Positions 3,709-8,555 of a stretch of DNA of 64,000 bases are shown piece after piece. Made by a program: the position numbers and the translations under genes. Positions within the stretch are counted from its first letter, which is position 1, and every line of letters begins with the position of its first letter. Below the pieces are notes generated by a model that was not told where the DNA came from, did not search any database, and saw only the letters and a list, made by a program, of their open reading frames with translations. The stretch is from Promethearchaeota archaeon (GTDB taxonomy: Archaea; Asgardarchaeota; Lokiarchaeia; Sigyniarchaeales; SOKP01): NCBI GenBank assembly GCA_048939995.1, contig JBHLOY010000003.1:1-64000 (forward strand), in the 5' to 3' direction.

Positions 3709-4047
3709 TCAGTTTTTTGTGGTTTTCTTTCTCTTTAATTCTGAGTAATAATTTTTGCTATTCTTAGCAATTGAATCTTGTAACTCTCTACTAGCATTTA
3801 TTATTTCTTTCCATATAGCTTGAATATTCTTCTTCATATAGACTGTTGATTTAAGTCCAATTCTTTCGATTAATTCATTTTCTCTTTTAGGTTGTTTAAT
3901 TTTCAAATTGTGCTCTTTTTTAATCTTACCAATTTCAAATGCAATTTCACCCCTCTTGTTTAATAGTTCCGCAATTCTATCATCAATATTATCGATATCT
4001 TTCCTAAGCTTCTCTATTTTATTGTGATGATCGTTTATTTCAACCAA
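3709..4047 (-). CDS. Chorismate mutase, AroQ / type II, stand-alone
   Basis: LRKDIDNIDDRIAELLNKR...IGKIK...RE...SRELQ. TTG start preceded by GAGGTA, 15 nt after the pheT stop. Confidence 0.88.
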   Translation of the reverse strand: MVEINDHHNKIEKLRKDIDNIDDRIAELLNKRGEIAFEIGKIKKEHNLKIKQPKRENELIERIGLKSTVYMKKNIQAIWKEIINASRELQDSIAKNSKNYYSELKRKKTTKN

Positions 4048-4062
4048 ATGAATTACCTCTAA

Positions 4063-5742
4063 TTAATCAAAAAAATGTTTTAGTTCTAATTCTAAAGCGG
4101 CAACTGGAAATTCTAATTTAAAATTACTTAAAACTTCAGGATGGATTTCTCCAACTTCTCCAATCTTAACTCCATTTAAGTAAATGTCTCCATATCTACC
4201 TTTAATGTAACTGGTATTATCACCGGGTTTTACCTCATAATCTGAATCATGACCGAGTGTTGTCATTAAATAATCTAAAGTTGAGCGTATTTCTGTAAAA
4301 TCTGCATCTTCATGGTAAGTTGTTATAGCAAGATGAATTTCTCTCTTTGCACCTGTTTCAGCTTTAGGCTCTAATAAGATTACATCTCCCACTTCAAAAA
4401 TTCTAATCGGCTTTTCTTCAGATCTATTAAATAGTAATGTTTCCATTAACTTCGGGAGAATTCTTGTTCTTAGGGTATTATATTCTTTTGAAACCGGATT
4501 CTCAATCTGTGTTATCTCTCTTTCGGCAATCTCTTGATTCATAAATATAAATTGTTTTTCAGAACTTGCCAGAAGGAAATTTAAGACTTCCAAATAACCC
4601 GCTCCAATCATAATTCTTCGAATTTTATTTGCAAAGTCTTGTATAGGGTGATATTTTCCGATACCTCCTTCTCTTATAGTAAGTGGCAATTTGAAGTATC
4701 CATAACCCATTGCACATTCTTCAGTGAAATCTATTGGGTGAATAATATCTCCTCTATAGGCTGGTACAAAAACATCTAAATAACCCTTTTTTTTTGATTG
4801 TAAAGCATCCATTCTAACCTTTTGAAAACTTTTAATCATTTTTGTTGGAGATAATTTCAAACCTATAACACTATTGATATAATCTATATTTACTTCCCAT
4901 TTAGTCGGTTCCAAGTTAGGGGTGATAATTTCTTGTTCTCCTTCATAATTTACTTTAACACTTTCTACTGTGGCTCCCATATCTGCTAATGTAGTTGATA
5001 AAATATTTAATGCAAGATTTATTGCCTTAAAGTCAGTTCCAGTTAGATCTAAAAATAAATTTTTTGTTTCATCTGTAACTGTAGTTAATACTCCATTTAT
5101 AACTGGAGGAAATGAGAGCACTTCATTATTTTTATCAAATATAACTGGATAGACATCTTTTCCCTCTAAGATATGGGCATATTCTATCCCTTTTTCATGT
5201 AATAATAAAATTTCCTCTAGATTCATTGGATATCCATCTCCATGTAATGGTTCAAAACTTACTGAATCAGGCTTTACAGCGGTATACCTATAAGGAGGCA
5301 CAACCTTATCCAAATCATGGACACCTATCGCTACTTTTTTTCGGTCTCGTCCAACAGCCCAATGCAATTGTTCTTGAATATTCATTAATGTCGCAACCTC
5401 GTCTTCATCCAAATCAATGTTTCGAATAACACCACATACTATATATGGTCTAACCTTCTTTACACTCGGATCGACGTTCAAAATAATATTTCCTCGGGTA
5501 ATTTCAAACTTAGGTAAACCTAATTCAAGTTCATAATAACCCTTGAGAGTTCGGGCAATACCTTCAGGACTGGAAAAATCTGGTCTATTAGGGTTATATT
5601 CCACTTTAATTTTTCCTTCTTGCTCATCAAGACCCTCTACATCTAAACTTATCCATTGCAAGTCATATTCTAAATTTTTCAAATCTAATTGCTTTCCAAC
5701 TAATCTTTCTAATCTTTCAATTTTTAATTCAATAGTAGGAAT
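4063..5742 (-). CDS. pheT: Phenylalanine--tRNA ligase beta subunit (archaeal/eukaryotic type); start extended to ATT 5742
   Basis: NRPD, QEQLH...GRDRKKVAIGVHD, SFPPVING, PAYRGDIIHPID and GEIHPEVL. The frame extends to ATT-CCT-ACT-ATT-GAA ((M)PTIE, the usual archaeal PheT N-terminus) 6 nt after a GAGGTGA SD. Confidence 0.93.
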   Translation of the reverse strand: MPTIELKIERLERLVGKQLDLKNLEYDLQWISLDVEGLDEQEGKIKVEYNPNRPDFSSPEGIARTLKGYYELELGLPKFEITRGNIILNVDPSVKKVRPYIVCGVIRNIDLDEDEVATLMNIQEQLHWAVGRDRKKVAIGVHDLDKVVPPYRYTAVKPDSVSFEPLHGDGYPMNLEEILLLHEKGIEYAHILEGKDVYPVIFDKNNEVLSFPPVINGVLTTVTDETKNLFLDLTGTDFKAINLALNILSTTLADMGATVESVKVNYEGEQEIITPNLEPTKWEVNIDYINSVIGLKLSPTKMIKSFQKVRMDALQSKKKGYLDVFVPAYRGDIIHPIDFTEECAMGYGYFKLPLTIREGGIGKYHPIQDFANKIRRIMIGAGYLEVLNFLLASSEKQFIFMNQEIAEREITQIENPVSKEYNTLRTRILPKLMETLLFNRSEEKPIRIFEVGDVILLEPKAETGAKREIHLAITTYHEDADFTEIRSTLDYLMTTLGHDSDYEVKPGDNTSYIKGRYGDIYLNGVKIGEVGEIHPEVLSNFKLEFPVAALELELKHFFD

Positions 5743-5748
5743 TTTTAA

Positions 5749-5755
5749 TCACCTC
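5749..5755 (-). promoter_or_regulatory. Shine-Dalgarno GAGGTGA overlapping the pheS stop codon (pheS-pheT translational coupling)
   Basis: Minus strand reads AAG-TGA-GGTGA-TTAAAA-ATT-CCT. Confidence 0.75.
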
Positions 5756-7295
5756 ACTTATAATAAGGTTGTTGTCTTAACCATTTTATGGGATTAATAT
5801 AAAAATCTCTTATATCACTCCTTTCATAATAAGGCATCGCGATTCTTTCCAATCCCTGACCCCATGCTAAAACTCGTGTTGGCTCTCGAATTCCCCATGG
5901 ATAAGTCACTTCAGGCCTAAATATTCCAGATCCACCCATCTCTAACCACTCACCTAATTTATCATAAAATACTGAAACTTGCATGCTAGGTTCAGTATAT
6001 GGAAAAAATGCGGGTTTAGTAACAATTTTCTTAAATCCTAATTTTTTATAGAATTCTGAGAGTAATCCAATCAAATCGCATAGTGTTAGATTGTTGTCAA
6101 TTACAATTCCTTCTACTTGGGTAAATTCTGCTAAATGTGATTTATCTACTCTTTCATTTCGAAATACCCTATCAACACAGAATACTTTTACTGGAACTTC
6201 TTCCTGATCTCGATAAAATTGAGCTAATCTTCTCATAGTTGTAGCAGTTGTGTGCGGTCTTAATAAAGTTTTTTTAGCAATATTCTCATCCCATTCGTAG
6301 CCCCATCCTAATGAGCCACTATCTCCTCCGTTCTCATGAGTTGCTTTAATTGCTAATACTCTATCCTTTTCAGGGAGTTTTGCTACTTTTGGATTACTTA
6401 GATAAAATGTATCTTGCAATTCACGCGCGGGGTGGTCTTGAGGTTGAAATAAAGCATCAAAATTATAAAATGCACTTTCAATAATTGGTCCTCTTATCTC
6501 TGTAAATCCCATCGATAAAAATACATCCCTAATTTCGTTAACTAAGTTAATTAAAGGATGTATCTTTCCTGCCTTTAACATAGGTCCCGGTTTAGTGACA
6601 TCAAATGGCTTTATCTCATATTTATTCCAGGTTTTGTTAGCAATCATGTTATGAGTAATTTTGCTGACCTGTTTTAATTCTTTAATTTTAGAAATAGGCA
6701 ACTTTTTACCTTTTTCAGTTAAAAATAATATTCTCTGGGTTTTTCTTGTCTTGTCTATAATTTTTCTTTTGTTTAAAATATCAAGTTGTTGTAAATCTGT
6801 CTTAGATAATGAGTTATAATCCATAATCGGAGCTTTTTCAAATTTTTTCAAAAAAGTCTCTAATTTTGTTTTTGGATATTGATCTGTAATAAGATACACT
6901 TTATTTTCCCCAGTTGCTTTACTCTCTGCAATCCATTTATTTTTCTTCATATTTGAGAGTCCAATATAGAAAAGATTCTTATCGAATTTGGATTCCTTTA
7001 AAAACTCATTTATAGATATTTCTTTAATATCATTTTTGATCAATAATTGTAGAAGTTCTCTTTCAGGTAATCCTTCTTTTAAATATTTTTTCCCTTCTTC
7101 ATTTAATGATATTTTATTTATCTCTTTCTCCTTAAAGCCACCAAGATTATGTTCAATTAAATCATTTATCGCAGACATTAGTACGATATAGTCAAGATTT
7201 AATTCTTTTGCTAAATCTTCTACAATAAGATTTTCTTCTCTTTCTTTTAGAATCTTAAAAATAGATATTACTTGTTTCCTAAGTTTGATTGACAT
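5754..7295 (-). CDS. pheS: Phenylalanine--tRNA ligase alpha subunit (long archaeal/eukaryotic type)
   Basis: NFDALFQPQDHPARELQDTFY, LRPHTT, FRNE, EFTQVEG, FFPYTEPS, GSGIFRPE and WGQGLERIAM. Confidence 0.97.
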   Translation of the reverse strand: MSIKLRKQVISIFKILKEREENLIVEDLAKELNLDYIVLMSAINDLIEHNLGGFKEKEINKISLNEEGKKYLKEGLPERELLQLLIKNDIKEISINEFLKESKFDKNLFYIGLSNMKKNKWIAESKATGENKVYLITDQYPKTKLETFLKKFEKAPIMDYNSLSKTDLQQLDILNKRKIIDKTRKTQRILFLTEKGKKLPISKIKELKQVSKITHNMIANKTWNKYEIKPFDVTKPGPMLKAGKIHPLINLVNEIRDVFLSMGFTEIRGPIIESAFYNFDALFQPQDHPARELQDTFYLSNPKVAKLPEKDRVLAIKATHENGGDSGSLGWGYEWDENIAKKTLLRPHTTATTMRRLAQFYRDQEEVPVKVFCVDRVFRNERVDKSHLAEFTQVEGIVIDNNLTLCDLIGLLSEFYKKLGFKKIVTKPAFFPYTEPSMQVSVFYDKLGEWLEMGGSGIFRPEVTYPWGIREPTRVLAWGQGLERIAMPYYERSDIRDFYINPIKWLRQQPYYK

Positions 7296-7417
7296 CTCAT
7301 TACATCTAAATATTTTTACTTTTTAATATATACTTTCTAAATTTTTAATCTATTTAAATCTTACGCGTAAATATTAGCCTAAAATAACTCTACCTTGAAT
7401 TAGAACAGCGTTATATA

Positions 7418-7512
7418 CCCTAAGGGAGAAATAAATTAAACATAATTAACCATTATAAATTTATTCCGCAGCCAAGGGAAAAATTAAATGTGAGTGTTTT
7501 ATTCCCTTGGCA
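7418..7512 (-). promoter_or_regulatory. Alternative RNA stems in the pheS leader (candidate attenuator structures)
   Basis: Perfect 10-bp stem GCCAAGGGAA (7511-7502) / TTCCCTTGGC (7480-7471). Second stem GGAATAAATT (7467-7458) / AATTTATTTC (7437-7428). The first arm is also complementary to TCCCTTAGG (7427-7419). Confidence 0.55.
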
Positions 7513-7582
7513 AAATAAAGAATTGAAAGAAAAACAAACGTTGCGTGAGACTAGATTTGAAATAAGTATTTATGCTATTCAA
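7499..7582 (-). CDS. Putative Phe-rich leader peptide, 27 aa: MNSINTYFKSSLTQRLFFFQFFILPRE (PheL/PheM-like)
   Basis: TTG at 7582 with SD-like GAGATG 8 nt upstream, codons TTT TTC TTT CAA TTC TTT at 7534-7517, and TAA at 7501-7499. Same strand as pheS and 204 nt upstream of it. Confidence 0.55.
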   Translation of the reverse strand: MNSINTYFKSSLTQRLFFFQFFILPRE

Positions 7583-7639
7583 TTTAATAACATCTCAGGC
7601 AATAATATAATTCTAGATATACAGAAGACCTAAAAAATT

Positions 7640-8101
7640 TTACCTTAAATTCTGACGAATAGAGGTAGAACTGATCTTTTTCTTGTTCTTATCTTTTATT
7701 AATGGTATTATAATTAAGATTAAGCGTTCCATGCCCTTTTCTTCTCTTAGATCATTTAATTTAAGCGCGTTTGGATATGTTTCTTCACTTACAATTAAGC
7801 CATCATAATCTGGGCTTTGAGAATATTTGGCCATATCATCCCAGCTTTCAATTTCTACAATATTAACTCTATTTAAATCAGTAAAAGAATCAATAAAATT
7901 CTTTAGATTTTGTTCTCTGGTAGCATAATCCTCAAGTTTTGAATGAGCTTTTTTATTTTTCAACAAATCCTGAGAAGTTAACCCAATTTCTATTCGGTGT
8001 GCTATTTTTAGAGCTGTTTTTATTAAAAATTTGTGACCTTCATGTAAATGATCAAAAGTTCCGCCCAATCCTAGTTTGTTAAATATAGGGGAACACCACA
8101 C
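7640..8101 (-). CDS. coaD: Phosphopantetheine adenylyltransferase (archaeal/eukaryotic type)
   Basis: GGTFDHLHEGHK (HxGH), IVSEET, N..R...G, and KISSTSIR. Confidence 0.9.
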   Translation of the reverse strand: MWCSPIFNKLGLGGTFDHLHEGHKFLIKTALKIAHRIEIGLTSQDLLKNKKAHSKLEDYATREQNLKNFIDSFTDLNRVNIVEIESWDDMAKYSQSPDYDGLIVSEETYPNALKLNDLREEKGMERLILIIIPLIKDKNKKKISSTSIRQNLR

Positions 8102-8120
8102 TTAGTTAAAAATTAGAAAT

Positions 8121-8555
8121 TTATTTTTCAGGTTTATTAATACTTTTCTTCGTTTCTTCTTTTTTAGGAACCACAGCTTTCTTTAATTTTACGCTATAGA
8201 TTTGATTTACTTCCATCGCTTCATTGCAGTCATTACAAGTATCCACTTTTTTGAAAACAAAATCTCCACGTTGATAATTTCTTACTTTCGTAACTCCGCA
8301 CAATTTACACTTTAAAATCGAAAGAGTTTGTCTTATTGGTTCAGAAGGACGTTTTTGAATTTGAATGAGAGTAGAACCCAAACAAATAAATGAAAAACCT
8401 ATAAAGAAGTTAGTAATTTGATTTGCTCCGCTCCCCAAATAGATAAATAAAGCACCAACAATAATCAAAACTACCAATAGTAGATTTTTTAAAACGCTTT
8501 TTAATGATATACCTTTCTTTAAGACTTCTTCCTCTTCATCCTCATCGTCGATCAT
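8121..8555 (-). CDS. Two-TM membrane protein with a C-terminal zinc ribbon
   Basis: Two hydrophobic segments followed by CKLC...RNYQRGDFVFK...CNDC. Confidence 0.7.
   Translation of the reverse strand: MIDDEDEEEEVLKKGISLKSVLKNLLLVVLIIVGALFIYLGSGANQITNFFIGFSFICLGSTLIQIQKRPSEPIRQTLSILKCKLCGVTKVRNYQRGDFVFKKVDTCNDCNEAMEVNQIYSVKLKKAVVPKKEETKKSINKPEK

What the first reader, a model, noticed from the sequence alone, without database searches (positions are those of the whole stretch)
7418..7512. Mutually exclusive RNA pairings downstream of the Phe codons
Seen on the mRNA strand: segment A (GCCAAGGGAAUAAA, starting at 7511, which includes the leader stop) pairs perfectly over 10 bp with B (UUCCCUUGGC, 7480-7471). 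C (GGAAUAAAUU, 7467-7458) pairs with D (AAUUUAUUUC, 7437-7428) with one G-U pair. A is alternatively complementary to D plus UCCCUUAGG (about 7435-7419). A starts only 6 nt after the last Phe codon, so a ribosome on the Phe codons or at the stop would cover it. Inference: this is switch-like geometry that could be the effector half of the attenuator.
Basis: partly seen in the sequence, partly recalled or inferred. Interest (0 to 1): 0.7.

Follow-up and report, generated by a model that had tools for sequence, protein, structure and literature searches.

The report
tRNA-Phe-like hairpin ending a Phe uORF

Summary
The pairings are in the sequence as described. A:B is a perfect 10-bp hairpin of -17.7 kcal/mol, C:D folds, and A can also pair with D' at about -10 to -11 kcal/mol.

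Only A:B is conserved. It lies about 215 nt upstream of pheS in 119 of 135 genomes of one Asgard family. It is absent from the three sister-family loci that keep the same gene order. Pairs 2-6 never change, and pairs 7, 8 and 10 show compensatory changes.

C:D is no more stable than shuffled sequence across orthologues. A:D' is seen only in the window and its closest relatives. B has no consistent alternative partner, and there is no conserved oligo-T terminator. The terminator/antiterminator reading is therefore not supported.

Two further results:
- **The leader ORF is real.** Its frame is open for at least 26 codons in 50 of 50 orthologues. The consensus tail is ..SFxFxFFxLPR[EDV]*, and the stop codon sits at the first loop bases.
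- **The stem copies tRNA-Phe.** GCCAAGG-GA/UC-CCUUGGC equals the acceptor stem plus the first two T-stem pairs of this genome's tRNA-Phe. These are the only two such sites in 3.75 Mb.

Best reading: a ribosome-gated, sequence-specifically recognised tRNA-Phe-like hairpin that controls the pheS-pheT-chorismate mutase genes. The output step is unknown. A canonical promoter-like box lies between the hairpin and pheS, and no RNA data could be obtained.

The parts
7499..7582 (-). Leader ORF (uORF), 27 aa, UUG start, MNSINTYFKSSLTQRLFFFQFFILPRE*. Orthologues are mostly 29 aa with an ATG or TTG start.
   Evidence: One search lists the ORF. In 50 of 50 unique orthologues this frame is open for at least 26 codons; the other two frames have medians of 16 and 5. 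Starts are ATG in 25 and TTG in 23. The stop is TAA, TAG or TGA at the same column.
7517..7534 (-). Phe codon cluster: UUU UUC UUU CAA UUC UUU (F F F Q F F).
   Evidence: Read. Orthologues have 3-5 Phe in the last 9 codons before Pro. The TTT codon three codons before the Pro codon CCA is invariant, and the codon before it is TTC or TTT in 43 of 50.
7502..7511 (-). Arm A, GCCAAGGGAA: the 5' arm of the conserved hairpin. It spans the last base of the Leu codon plus the Pro, Arg and Glu codons.
   Evidence: Positions 2-6 are invariant in 57 of 57 correctly aligned rows. The sequence is identical to positions 1-7 of tRNA-Phe plus G49 and A50.
7481..7501 (-). Hairpin loop of 21 nt. Its first three bases are the leader stop UAA (7501-7499).
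   Evidence: Loop sequence and length vary among orthologues while the stop stays at the first loop bases.
7471..7480 (-). Arm B, UUCCCUUGGC: the 3' arm, non-coding. It equals tRNA-Phe positions 64-72.
   Evidence: CUUGG is invariant in all 59 sequences.
7466..7470 (-). Conserved 3' tail UGCGG. The U stands where the tRNA has discriminator A73, and GG begins the next, weak hairpin.
   Evidence: CTGCGG is nearly invariant in the alignments.
7428..7467 (-). It folds in this window but is not conserved as a stable structure.
   Evidence: One search shows the fold. One search gives a median z of -0.36 over 49 orthologues.
7419..7437 (-).
   Evidence: -10.2 kcal/mol here, but a median z of 0.08 across orthologues. 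The alignment shows no conservation.
7388..7406 (-). Conserved motif GUUCUAAUUCAAGGUAGAG (family consensus YUCUAAUUCRAGA). It forms only a weak hairpin, and its role is unknown.
   Evidence: Alignments. The motif is missing in one lineage (L035).
7351..7367 (-). BRE/TATA-like box CGCGTAAGATTTAAATA, 56-72 nt upstream of the pheS ATG.
   Evidence: Nearly invariant across the family. Genome-wide, TATA-like words peak 50-80 nt upstream of ATG codons.
7323..7342 (-). Second conserved A/T-rich box, ATTTAGAAAGTATATATTAA.
   Evidence: TAGAAAA and AAATATA are among the words most enriched 40-85 nt upstream of genes in this genome.
5754..7295 (-). pheS, the archaeal-type PheRS alpha subunit.
   Evidence: Pfam tRNA-synt_2d, E = 6e-85.
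4063..5742 (-). pheT, the PheRS beta subunit. The start codon is uncertain; the listed ORF begins at 5682.
   Evidence: Pfam tRNA_synthFbeta, B5 and B3_4.
3709..4047 (-). Chorismate mutase (AroQ type), downstream in the same direction.
   Evidence: Pfam CM_2, E = 4e-20.
7629..7640 (-). Conserved AAATTTTTTAGG directly after the upstream cytidylyltransferase-like gene. It may be that gene's oligo-T terminator, part of the leader's promoter region, or both.
   Evidence: Nearly invariant in the genus alignment. Its function was not tested.

Best explanation
The finding is the downstream half of a family-specific cis-regulatory leader for the pheS-pheT-chorismate mutase genes of an Asgard (Promethearchaeota) archaeon.

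A short ORF rich in Phe codons is translated. Its last three sense codons form the 5' arm, and its stop codon the first loop bases, of one hairpin (A:B). The outer base pairs of that hairpin are fixed in sequence and reproduce the acceptor stem, plus the first two T-stem pairs, of tRNA-Phe.

Proposed working:
- A ribosome that reaches the last Phe codons or the stop melts the hairpin.
- A ribosome held at the earlier Phe codons, or no ribosome at all, lets it form.
- The formed hairpin is not one partner in a terminator/antiterminator exchange. It is read sequence-specifically as a tRNA-Phe-like helix, most plausibly by PheRS itself or by another tRNA-Phe-binding or tRNA-processing factor.
- That recognition sets how much pheS message is made or kept.

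Shown here: the ORF, the hairpin, its invariance and covariation, the identity with tRNA-Phe, and the lack of conserved alternative pairings.

Inferred: that the ORF senses Phe-tRNA supply, that a protein reads the hairpin, and that the output acts on pheS.
For: 1. Hairpin A:B is present in 119 of 135 family genomes and in 34 of 36 high-quality ones. It is also found in 18 of 19 Asgard loci retrieved independently through the pheS protein, at -212 to -220 from the ATG. It is absent from the three sister-family loci that keep the same gene order.
2. RNA-level selection: 93.9% of cells pair. G.U pairs and GC to AU or AU to UA changes occur at pairs 7, 8 and 10. Loop length varies from about 13 to 33 nt.
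3. Sequence-specific selection: pairs 2-6 (CCAAG/CUUGG) never change, even at the synonymous third base of the Pro codon. They also stay unchanged in genus g12, where the ORF stops 1 nt before the hairpin and the arm is not translated.
4. tRNA-Phe match: this genome's tRNA-Phe(GAA) has acceptor stem GCCAAGG/CCUUGGC and T stem GAGGG/CCCUC. A search for GCCAAGG followed within 200 nt by CCTTGGC hits only that tRNA and this hairpin in 3.75 Mb. None of 20 other predicted tRNAs has a second acceptor-like hairpin.
5. The ORF is conserved as a frame, with its stop in the loop and 3-5 Phe codons.
6. Gene context is Phe-related: PheRS alpha, PheRS beta and chorismate mutase.
7. Precedent for synthetases binding tRNA-like elements in their own mRNA: yeast HisRS (PMC6542539) and the E. 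coli thrS operator (own knowledge).
Against: - No RNA data.
- A strongly conserved BRE/TATA-like box at the genome-typical distance lies between the hairpin and pheS. pheS may therefore be transcribed independently.
- The hairpin does not track tRNA-Phe. In G132, G135, G023, G104, G107 and G120 the tRNA has G2:C71 while the hairpin keeps C2:G71. In G117 the tRNA also has G2:C71, but its hairpin was not recovered. Position 66 agrees in some genomes and disagrees in others. The g12 hairpin has C1:G72.
- The base after the stem is U, whereas the tRNA discriminator is A73. No anticodon mimic was found.
- Acceptor-stem pairs are not known major identity elements for PheRS (own knowledge).
- Phe-rich short frames are common by chance in this 30% G+C genome: 127 upstream frames have at least 5 Phe in 8 codons.
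- The tRNA match was noticed after the fact.
Confidence: 0.5

Rival explanations
1. Classical leader-peptide transcription attenuator. Ribosome stalling on the Phe codons would choose between A:B and A:D' (with C:D), and one of these would act as a terminator for transcription reading into pheS.
For: The geometry exists in this window: A:B at -17.7 kcal/mol, A:D' at -10.2 to -11.4, and C:D in the minimum-energy fold. The uORF with Phe codons is conserved. Transcription and translation are coupled in archaea (own knowledge).
Against: A:D' and C:D are not conserved. B has no consistent alternative partner. There is no conserved oligo-T tract, and several orthologues have no T5 at all between the stop and pheS. 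RNAalifold keeps only A:B. A promoter-like box lies downstream. A purely structural switch would not explain sequence-invariant stem pairs.
Confidence: 0.07
2. Separate unit. The uORF plus hairpin is an independent small gene or small RNA, made from its own promoter and ending before the pheS promoter. It would encode a short hydrophobic peptide or a tRNA-Phe-like decoy RNA acting in trans. pheS would be transcribed from the BRE/TATA box at 7367-7351.
For: A canonical promoter-like box is conserved between the two. A conserved AAATTTTTTAG and A/T-rich boxes lie upstream of the uORF. Some orthologues have SD-like GAGG or GAGAAG before the start.
Against: The position immediately upstream of pheS, at a nearly fixed distance of 212-221 nt, is conserved in the great majority of loci, which a trans-acting gene would not need. 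The N-terminal two thirds of the peptide are not conserved. There is no conserved terminator after the hairpin.
Confidence: 0.2
3. tRNA-like processing mark. The hairpin is cut by RNase P at its 5' side or by tRNase Z after the base following the stem. This would separate the uORF RNA from the pheS message, with ribosome occupancy deciding whether the cut occurs.
For: The helix has the acceptor and T-stem sequence and is followed by one base and then a trailer. tRNA-like punctuation is known in mitochondria and for MALAT1 (own knowledge).
Against: These nucleases recognise shape, not sequence, so they do not explain five invariant pairs. The helix has only 8-10 bp, against the 12 bp of an acceptor/T minihelix, and there is no T-loop-like loop.
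Confidence: 0.1
4. DNA-level operator. The inverted repeat GCCAAGG...CCTTGGC is a binding site for a dimeric transcription factor.
For: Both arms are sequence-invariant.
Against: The spacing between the arms varies from about 13 to 33 bp. G.U positions (8 at pair 7, 5 at pair 8) keep RNA pairing but break DNA symmetry. Compensatory changes occur at pairs 7, 8 and 10.
Confidence: 0.04
5. The identity with the tRNA-Phe acceptor stem is a coincidence. The hairpin would be a plain structural element, such as a pause site, a stabiliser or a ribosome roadblock, whose arms are fixed by some other constraint.
For: There is no co-variation with the tRNA at 2:71 or 1:72. The match was found after the fact.
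Against: A 7-bp identity has a chance of about 6e-5 per comparison under uniform base frequencies. It is the only extra copy of any tested tRNA acceptor stem in the genome, and it sits next to the cognate synthetase gene. Plain structural hairpins usually covary freely.
Confidence: 0.3

Closest known systems
E. coli pheM leader and pheST attenuator (and the pheA leader)
   Same: A short leader ORF with clustered Phe codons sits directly upstream of the PheRS genes. A hairpin arm begins a few bases after the last Phe codon, so ribosome position controls RNA folding.
   Different: The bacterial element has conserved, mutually exclusive antiterminator and terminator hairpins with a U tract, and no promoter between the leader and pheS. 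Here only one hairpin is conserved and no terminator is conserved. A promoter-like box intervenes, the stem is fixed in sequence, and the host is an archaeon.
E. coli thrS operator (tRNA-Thr anticodon-arm mimic bound by ThrRS)
   Same: An RNA element next to a synthetase gene reproduces part of the cognate tRNA. It would allow feedback by the enzyme.
   Different: The thrS operator mimics the anticodon arm, overlaps the ribosome-binding site of thrS itself, and has proven binding. Here the acceptor and T-stem helix is copied, it overlaps the stop of a uORF about 200 nt upstream of pheS, and binding is untested.
Yeast HisRS (HTS1) mRNA anticodon mimic (PMC6542539)
   Same: A eukaryote-type synthetase binds a tRNA-like element in its own mRNA and tunes its own synthesis according to tRNA levels.
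   Different: The yeast mimic copies the anticodon, lies inside the coding region and involves no uORF.
tnaC leader of the E. coli tna operon
   Same: A ribosome at the end of a leader ORF determines the fate of the downstream transcript without a terminator/antiterminator hairpin pair.
   Different: TnaC senses free Trp through the nascent peptide and blocks Rho. Nothing here shows peptide-mediated arrest or factor-dependent termination.
T-box riboswitch
   Same: It regulates synthetase genes by reference to the cognate tRNA.
   Different: The T-box binds the tRNA itself through a specifier codon and the T-box bulge. There is no Rfam match here. The element resembles the tRNA rather than being complementary to it.

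Membership tests
Leader-peptide transcription attenuator (trp / pheA / pheM-pheST type) | Short translated leader ORF with clustered codons for the regulating amino acid | tested here: met
   The frame is open in 50 of 50 orthologues, with 3-5 Phe in the last 9 codons and start and stop at fixed positions. Translation itself was not shown.
Leader-peptide transcription attenuator (trp / pheA / pheM-pheST type) | Conserved, mutually exclusive RNA pairings (1:2, 2:3, 3:4) | tested here: not met
   Only A:B is conserved. A:D' has a median z of 0.08, C:D a median z of -0.36, and B has no consistent partner when A is masked.
Leader-peptide transcription attenuator (trp / pheA / pheM-pheST type) | Terminator (U tract) between the leader and the structural gene | tested here: not met
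   T5 or longer runs are absent in 13 orthologues and not positionally conserved in the rest.
Leader-peptide transcription attenuator (trp / pheA / pheM-pheST type) | Leader and structural gene on one transcript from an upstream promoter | not testable with these tools
A BRE/TATA-like box lies between the leader and pheS.
tRNA-mimic operator in a synthetase's own mRNA (thrS, HTS1 type) | RNA element that reproduces part of the cognate tRNA | tested here: met
   Seven acceptor pairs plus two T-stem pairs are identical to this genome's tRNA-Phe. It is the only other such site in the genome. In relatives where both the tRNA and the hairpin were read, 5 to 7 of the 7 acceptor pairs match.
tRNA-mimic operator in a synthetase's own mRNA (thrS, HTS1 type) | The mimic carries the identity elements read by the synthetase and follows changes in the tRNA | tested here: not met
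   The base after the stem is U, not A73, and there is no anticodon mimic. The tRNA 2:71 flip in six genomes where the hairpin was read is not followed by the hairpin.
tRNA-mimic operator in a synthetase's own mRNA (thrS, HTS1 type) | Binding by the cognate synthetase, with an effect on its own expression | not testable with these tools
   This needs a binding assay with recombinant PheRS and a reporter test.
T-box riboswitch and any other Rfam family | Match to the covariance model | tested here: not met
   cmscan of 6800-8200 at E<=10 gave only chance-level hits, and none to a T-box or a leader family.

The most novel reading that the evidence does not exclude
Asgard archaea of this family control PheRS with a composite leader. 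A Phe-codon uORF reports charged tRNA-Phe supply through ribosome position, and in doing so exposes or melts a tRNA-Phe acceptor-stem mimic that PheRS, or another tRNA-Phe-specific factor, binds. To my knowledge this would be the first ribosome-mediated amino-acid-sensing leader and the first tRNA-mimic feedback element described in Archaea.
Probability: 0.25. Interest if true: 0.9.

Novelty: new variant of a known kind. Interest (0 to 1): 0.72.

Why it matters
To my knowledge, leader-peptide sensing and tRNA mimicry in synthetase genes are known from bacteria and yeast but have not been established in Archaea. Three literature searches found no archaeal case.

This element is conserved in more than 100 genomes of the archaeal group closest to eukaryotes. 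It gives a defined, small test object: about 85 nt of ORF plus a 45-nt hairpin. With it one can ask whether archaeal ribosomes and RNA polymerases support bacterial-style leader control, and whether eukaryote-type PheRS feeds back on its own message.

It also shows that the usual criterion for attenuators, alternative hairpins plus a terminator, would have missed the conserved core of this element.

Tried and rejected
- **Rfam:** no family matched the leader. Rfam and ARAGORN both missed the two-intron tRNA-Phe, and ARAGORN's 'tRNA-Phe(aaa)' call is not credible.
- **Consensus folding:** RNAalifold on 41 leaders kept only A:B. A column-pair scan found only 4-6-bp AU/GU-rich candidates without real covariation, for example UUCUUU with AAGGGA and UCAAG with CUUGG.
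with A masked, B has no conserved partner.
- **Co-evolution of hairpin and tRNA-Phe:**
  - Position 66 is U in both in G004, G008 and G023, but discordant in G018, G146, G135, G082 and G057.
  - The tRNA 2:71 flip is not followed by the hairpin.
  - G065 and G069 have an A7:U66 hairpin while the tRNA keeps G7.
  - I rejected this as proof.
- **tRNA-Phe in sister families:** not retrievable with three patterns.
- **Genome-wide scan for other amino-acid-run uORFs:** too noisy in this AT-rich genome, with 127 Phe-rich frames by chance.
- **Second acceptor-like hairpins for 20 other tRNAs:** none found.
- **Ideas considered and dropped:**
  - -1 frameshift stimulator: no slippery heptamer and no downstream frame.
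  - BHB intron that removes the stop: no BHB shape, and the distance to pheS is not in frame.
  - T-box-like UGGU for the tRNA 3' end: not conserved.
  - C/D-box sRNA: no boxes.

Full report
**Setting.** The window is contig C28 of a 3.75-Mb, roughly 30% G+C archaeal assembly. Close relatives retrieved through the pheS protein are MAGs labelled Promethearchaeota, Hermodarchaeota, Hodarchaeota or Thorarchaeota, that is, Asgard archaea.

On the minus strand lie four genes (Pfam):
- a cytidylyltransferase-like gene (7640-8101)
- pheS (5754-7295)
- pheT (4063-5742)
- a type II chorismate mutase (3709-4047)

The finding sits in the 344-nt spacer between the first two genes.

**The observation.** Reading 7200-7800 on the minus strand confirms each pairing.
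- A (GCCAAGGGAA, 7511-7502) pairs perfectly with B (UUCCCUUGGC, 7480-7471). The duplex energy is -17.7 kcal/mol.
- The 21-nt loop begins with the stop UAA (7501-7499) of a small ORF, 7582-7499. Its product is MNSINTYFKSSLTQRLFFFQFFILPRE.
- C:D is part of the minimum-energy fold of 7410-7520 (-27.0 kcal/mol, z = -3.1).
- A can also pair with the D/UCCCUUAGG segment at -10.2 to -11.4 kcal/mol.
- The whole 344-nt spacer is only marginally more stable than shuffles (z = -1.7).

**Conservation.**
- pheS loci from 23 same-genus genomes keep a spacer of about 345-365 nt.
- In three other families of the order the same gene pair is separated by only about 40-130 nt and has no leader.
- A strict hairpin pattern hits once per genome in 51 of 154 genomes of the order, all within one family.
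- A relaxed pattern hits 119 of 135 family genomes, 12 of 13 genera, and 34 of 36 high-quality genomes.
- Of 19 Asgard loci fetched independently by protein similarity, 18 carry the hairpin at -212 to -220 from the pheS ATG.

**Hairpin A:B is a selected RNA structure with a fixed sequence.** This rests on 59 distinct sequences.
- 93.9% of cells pair.
- Pair 7 occurs as G:C (48), G.U (8) and A:U (3).
- Pair 8 occurs as G:C, G.U and A:U.
- Pair 10 occurs as A:U (28) and U:A (9).
- Pairs 2-6 (CCAAG/CUUGG) never change. The two apparent exceptions are a one-column misalignment of the g12 rows.
- Loop length and sequence vary freely. This variation, together with the G.U pairs, argues against a DNA operator.

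The invariance is not a coding effect. The third base of the Pro codon (stem position 4) never varies. In genus g12 the ORF ends (..SLFFI*) one base before the hairpin, yet the arm is still CCAAGAG.

**The other pairings are not conserved.**
- The best duplex between A and the 95 nt downstream of B has a median z of 0.08 over 49 orthologues. Only the window and its nearest relatives stand out.
- The 52 nt after B, which hold the C:D position, have a median z of -0.36.
- RNAalifold on 41 leaders keeps only A:B.
- When A and the ribosome footprint at the stop are forced unpaired, B pairs with nothing consistent.
- T5 or longer runs between the stop and pheS are absent in 13 orthologues and not positionally conserved in the rest.

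A terminator/antiterminator switch is therefore not supported.

**The leader ORF.** In 50 unique orthologues:
- The frame that reads CCA AGG is open for at least 26 codons in all of them. The other two frames have medians of 16 and 5.
- The commonest length is 29 aa. Starts are ATG (25) or TTG (23) at an aligned position.
- The stop is TAA, TAG or TGA at the same column.
- The N-terminal part is not conserved. The tail is ..Q-x-S-F-x-F-x-F-F-x-L-P-R-[EDV]*, with 3-5 Phe.
- TTC/TTT synonymous variation occurs at the Phe positions.

A Phe run alone is weak evidence in this genome: 127 upstream frames have at least 5 Phe in 8 codons by chance. The evidence here is the conservation of the frame.

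**The tRNA-Phe match.** I searched the genome for GCCAAGG followed within 200 nt by CCTTGGC. This returned two sites: the leader hairpin and a gene on contig C11.

That gene is a tRNA-Phe(GAA) with introns in the D loop and the T loop. ARAGORN and Rfam both missed it. Its features are:
- acceptor stem GCCAAGG/CCUUGGC
- discriminator A73
- T stem GAGGG/CCCUC

The leader hairpin GCCAAGG-GA...UC-CCUUGGC thus reproduces the seven acceptor pairs and the first two T-stem pairs, which stack on them in a tRNA. None of 20 other predicted tRNAs has a second acceptor-like hairpin anywhere in the genome.

Across the family the match is not a strict co-evolution.
- tRNA-Phe is either GCCAAGG or GGCAAGG, with C66 or U66.
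- The hairpin keeps C2:G71 throughout and varies at pair 7 on its own.
- In g12 the hairpin has C1:G72.
- The shared invariant core is pairs 3-6.

I read this as a real relation, either mimicry or common origin with retained recognition, with odds of about 60-65%. It was noticed after the fact.

**Promoter question.** Two conserved boxes lie between the hairpins and pheS:
- CGCGTAAGATTTAAATA (7367-7351), a good BRE/TATA look-alike 56-72 nt upstream of the ATG
- ATTTAGAAAGTATATATT (about 7342-7325)

Genome-wide, TATA-like words peak 50-80 nt upstream of start codons and SD-like GAGG peaks at -20 to -11. TAGAAAA and AAATATA are among the most enriched upstream words.

pheS may therefore have its own promoter downstream of the leader. 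That weakens any read-through model. No RNA data could be obtained.

**Mechanism.** The geometry is shown.
- A ribosome with its A site on the last Phe codon (7519-7517) or on the stop must cover or unwind arm A.
- A ribosome held at the first three Phe codons (7534-7526) leaves arm A free.

What follows is inferred. I propose that the hairpin is the effector and is read sequence-specifically as a tRNA-Phe-like helix, by PheRS as feedback or by another tRNA-Phe-binding or tRNA-processing factor. uORF translation would gate its formation.

The output could be transcript stability, processing, or interference with the downstream promoter. It cannot be decided from sequence.

**Comparison with known systems.**
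- The nearest functional analogue is the E. coli pheM-pheST attenuator. Two of its defining features, alternative hairpins and a terminator, were tested and not met.
- The thrS operator and the yeast HisRS mRNA mimic (PMC6542539) are the nearest analogues for the hairpin. The identity-element and co-variation criteria are not met, and binding is untested.
- There is no T-box or other Rfam match.
- Literature searches found no archaeal leader-peptide attenuator or synthetase tRNA mimic.

I class the element as a new variant of known kinds of control, in a domain where neither kind has been described.

Noticed in passing
G000 contig C11, about 472557-472694, minus strand (locus L062:158-295:-): The genome's tRNA-Phe(GAA) gene carries two introns, one in the D loop and one at about position 59/60 in the T loop. 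ARAGORN and Rfam both miss it. ARAGORN finds only 20 tRNAs in the 3.75-Mb genome, so tRNA annotation in these Asgard MAGs is badly incomplete.
   Followed up: partly
window 7388-7406 (-): The conserved motif YUCUAAUUCRAGA, with a variable 3' half, forms at most a 3-5-bp hairpin. Its loop triplet is almost always UUC or UUU. The word UCAAGA also recurs inside the uORF in most orthologues (CAA GAU UCA). No role was found.
   Followed up: partly
window 7323-7367 (-): Two direct repeats of AGATTTA(A/G)A lie within the promoter-like region upstream of pheS. They are nearly invariant across 13 genera and could be a regulator binding site.
   Followed up: no
window 7629-7640 (-): AAATTTTTTAGG directly after the stop of the cytidylyltransferase-like gene is conserved in nearly all same-genus loci. 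It is either a terminator or part of the leader's promoter.
   Followed up: no
family-wide tRNA-Phe genes: Within one family, tRNA-Phe has two acceptor-stem forms (C2:G71 or G2:C71) and either G7:C66 or G7.U66. The T-loop intron is present or absent even within a genus.
   Followed up: partly
The true start codon of pheT remains unclear.
   Followed up: no
L035 (G073) and L071/L072 (genus g12): There are variant leaders. In G073 the distance from the hairpin to pheS is 145 nt and the YUCUAAUUC motif and the BRE part are missing. In g12 the uORF stops before the hairpin and the tail CUGCGG is replaced.
   Followed up: partly
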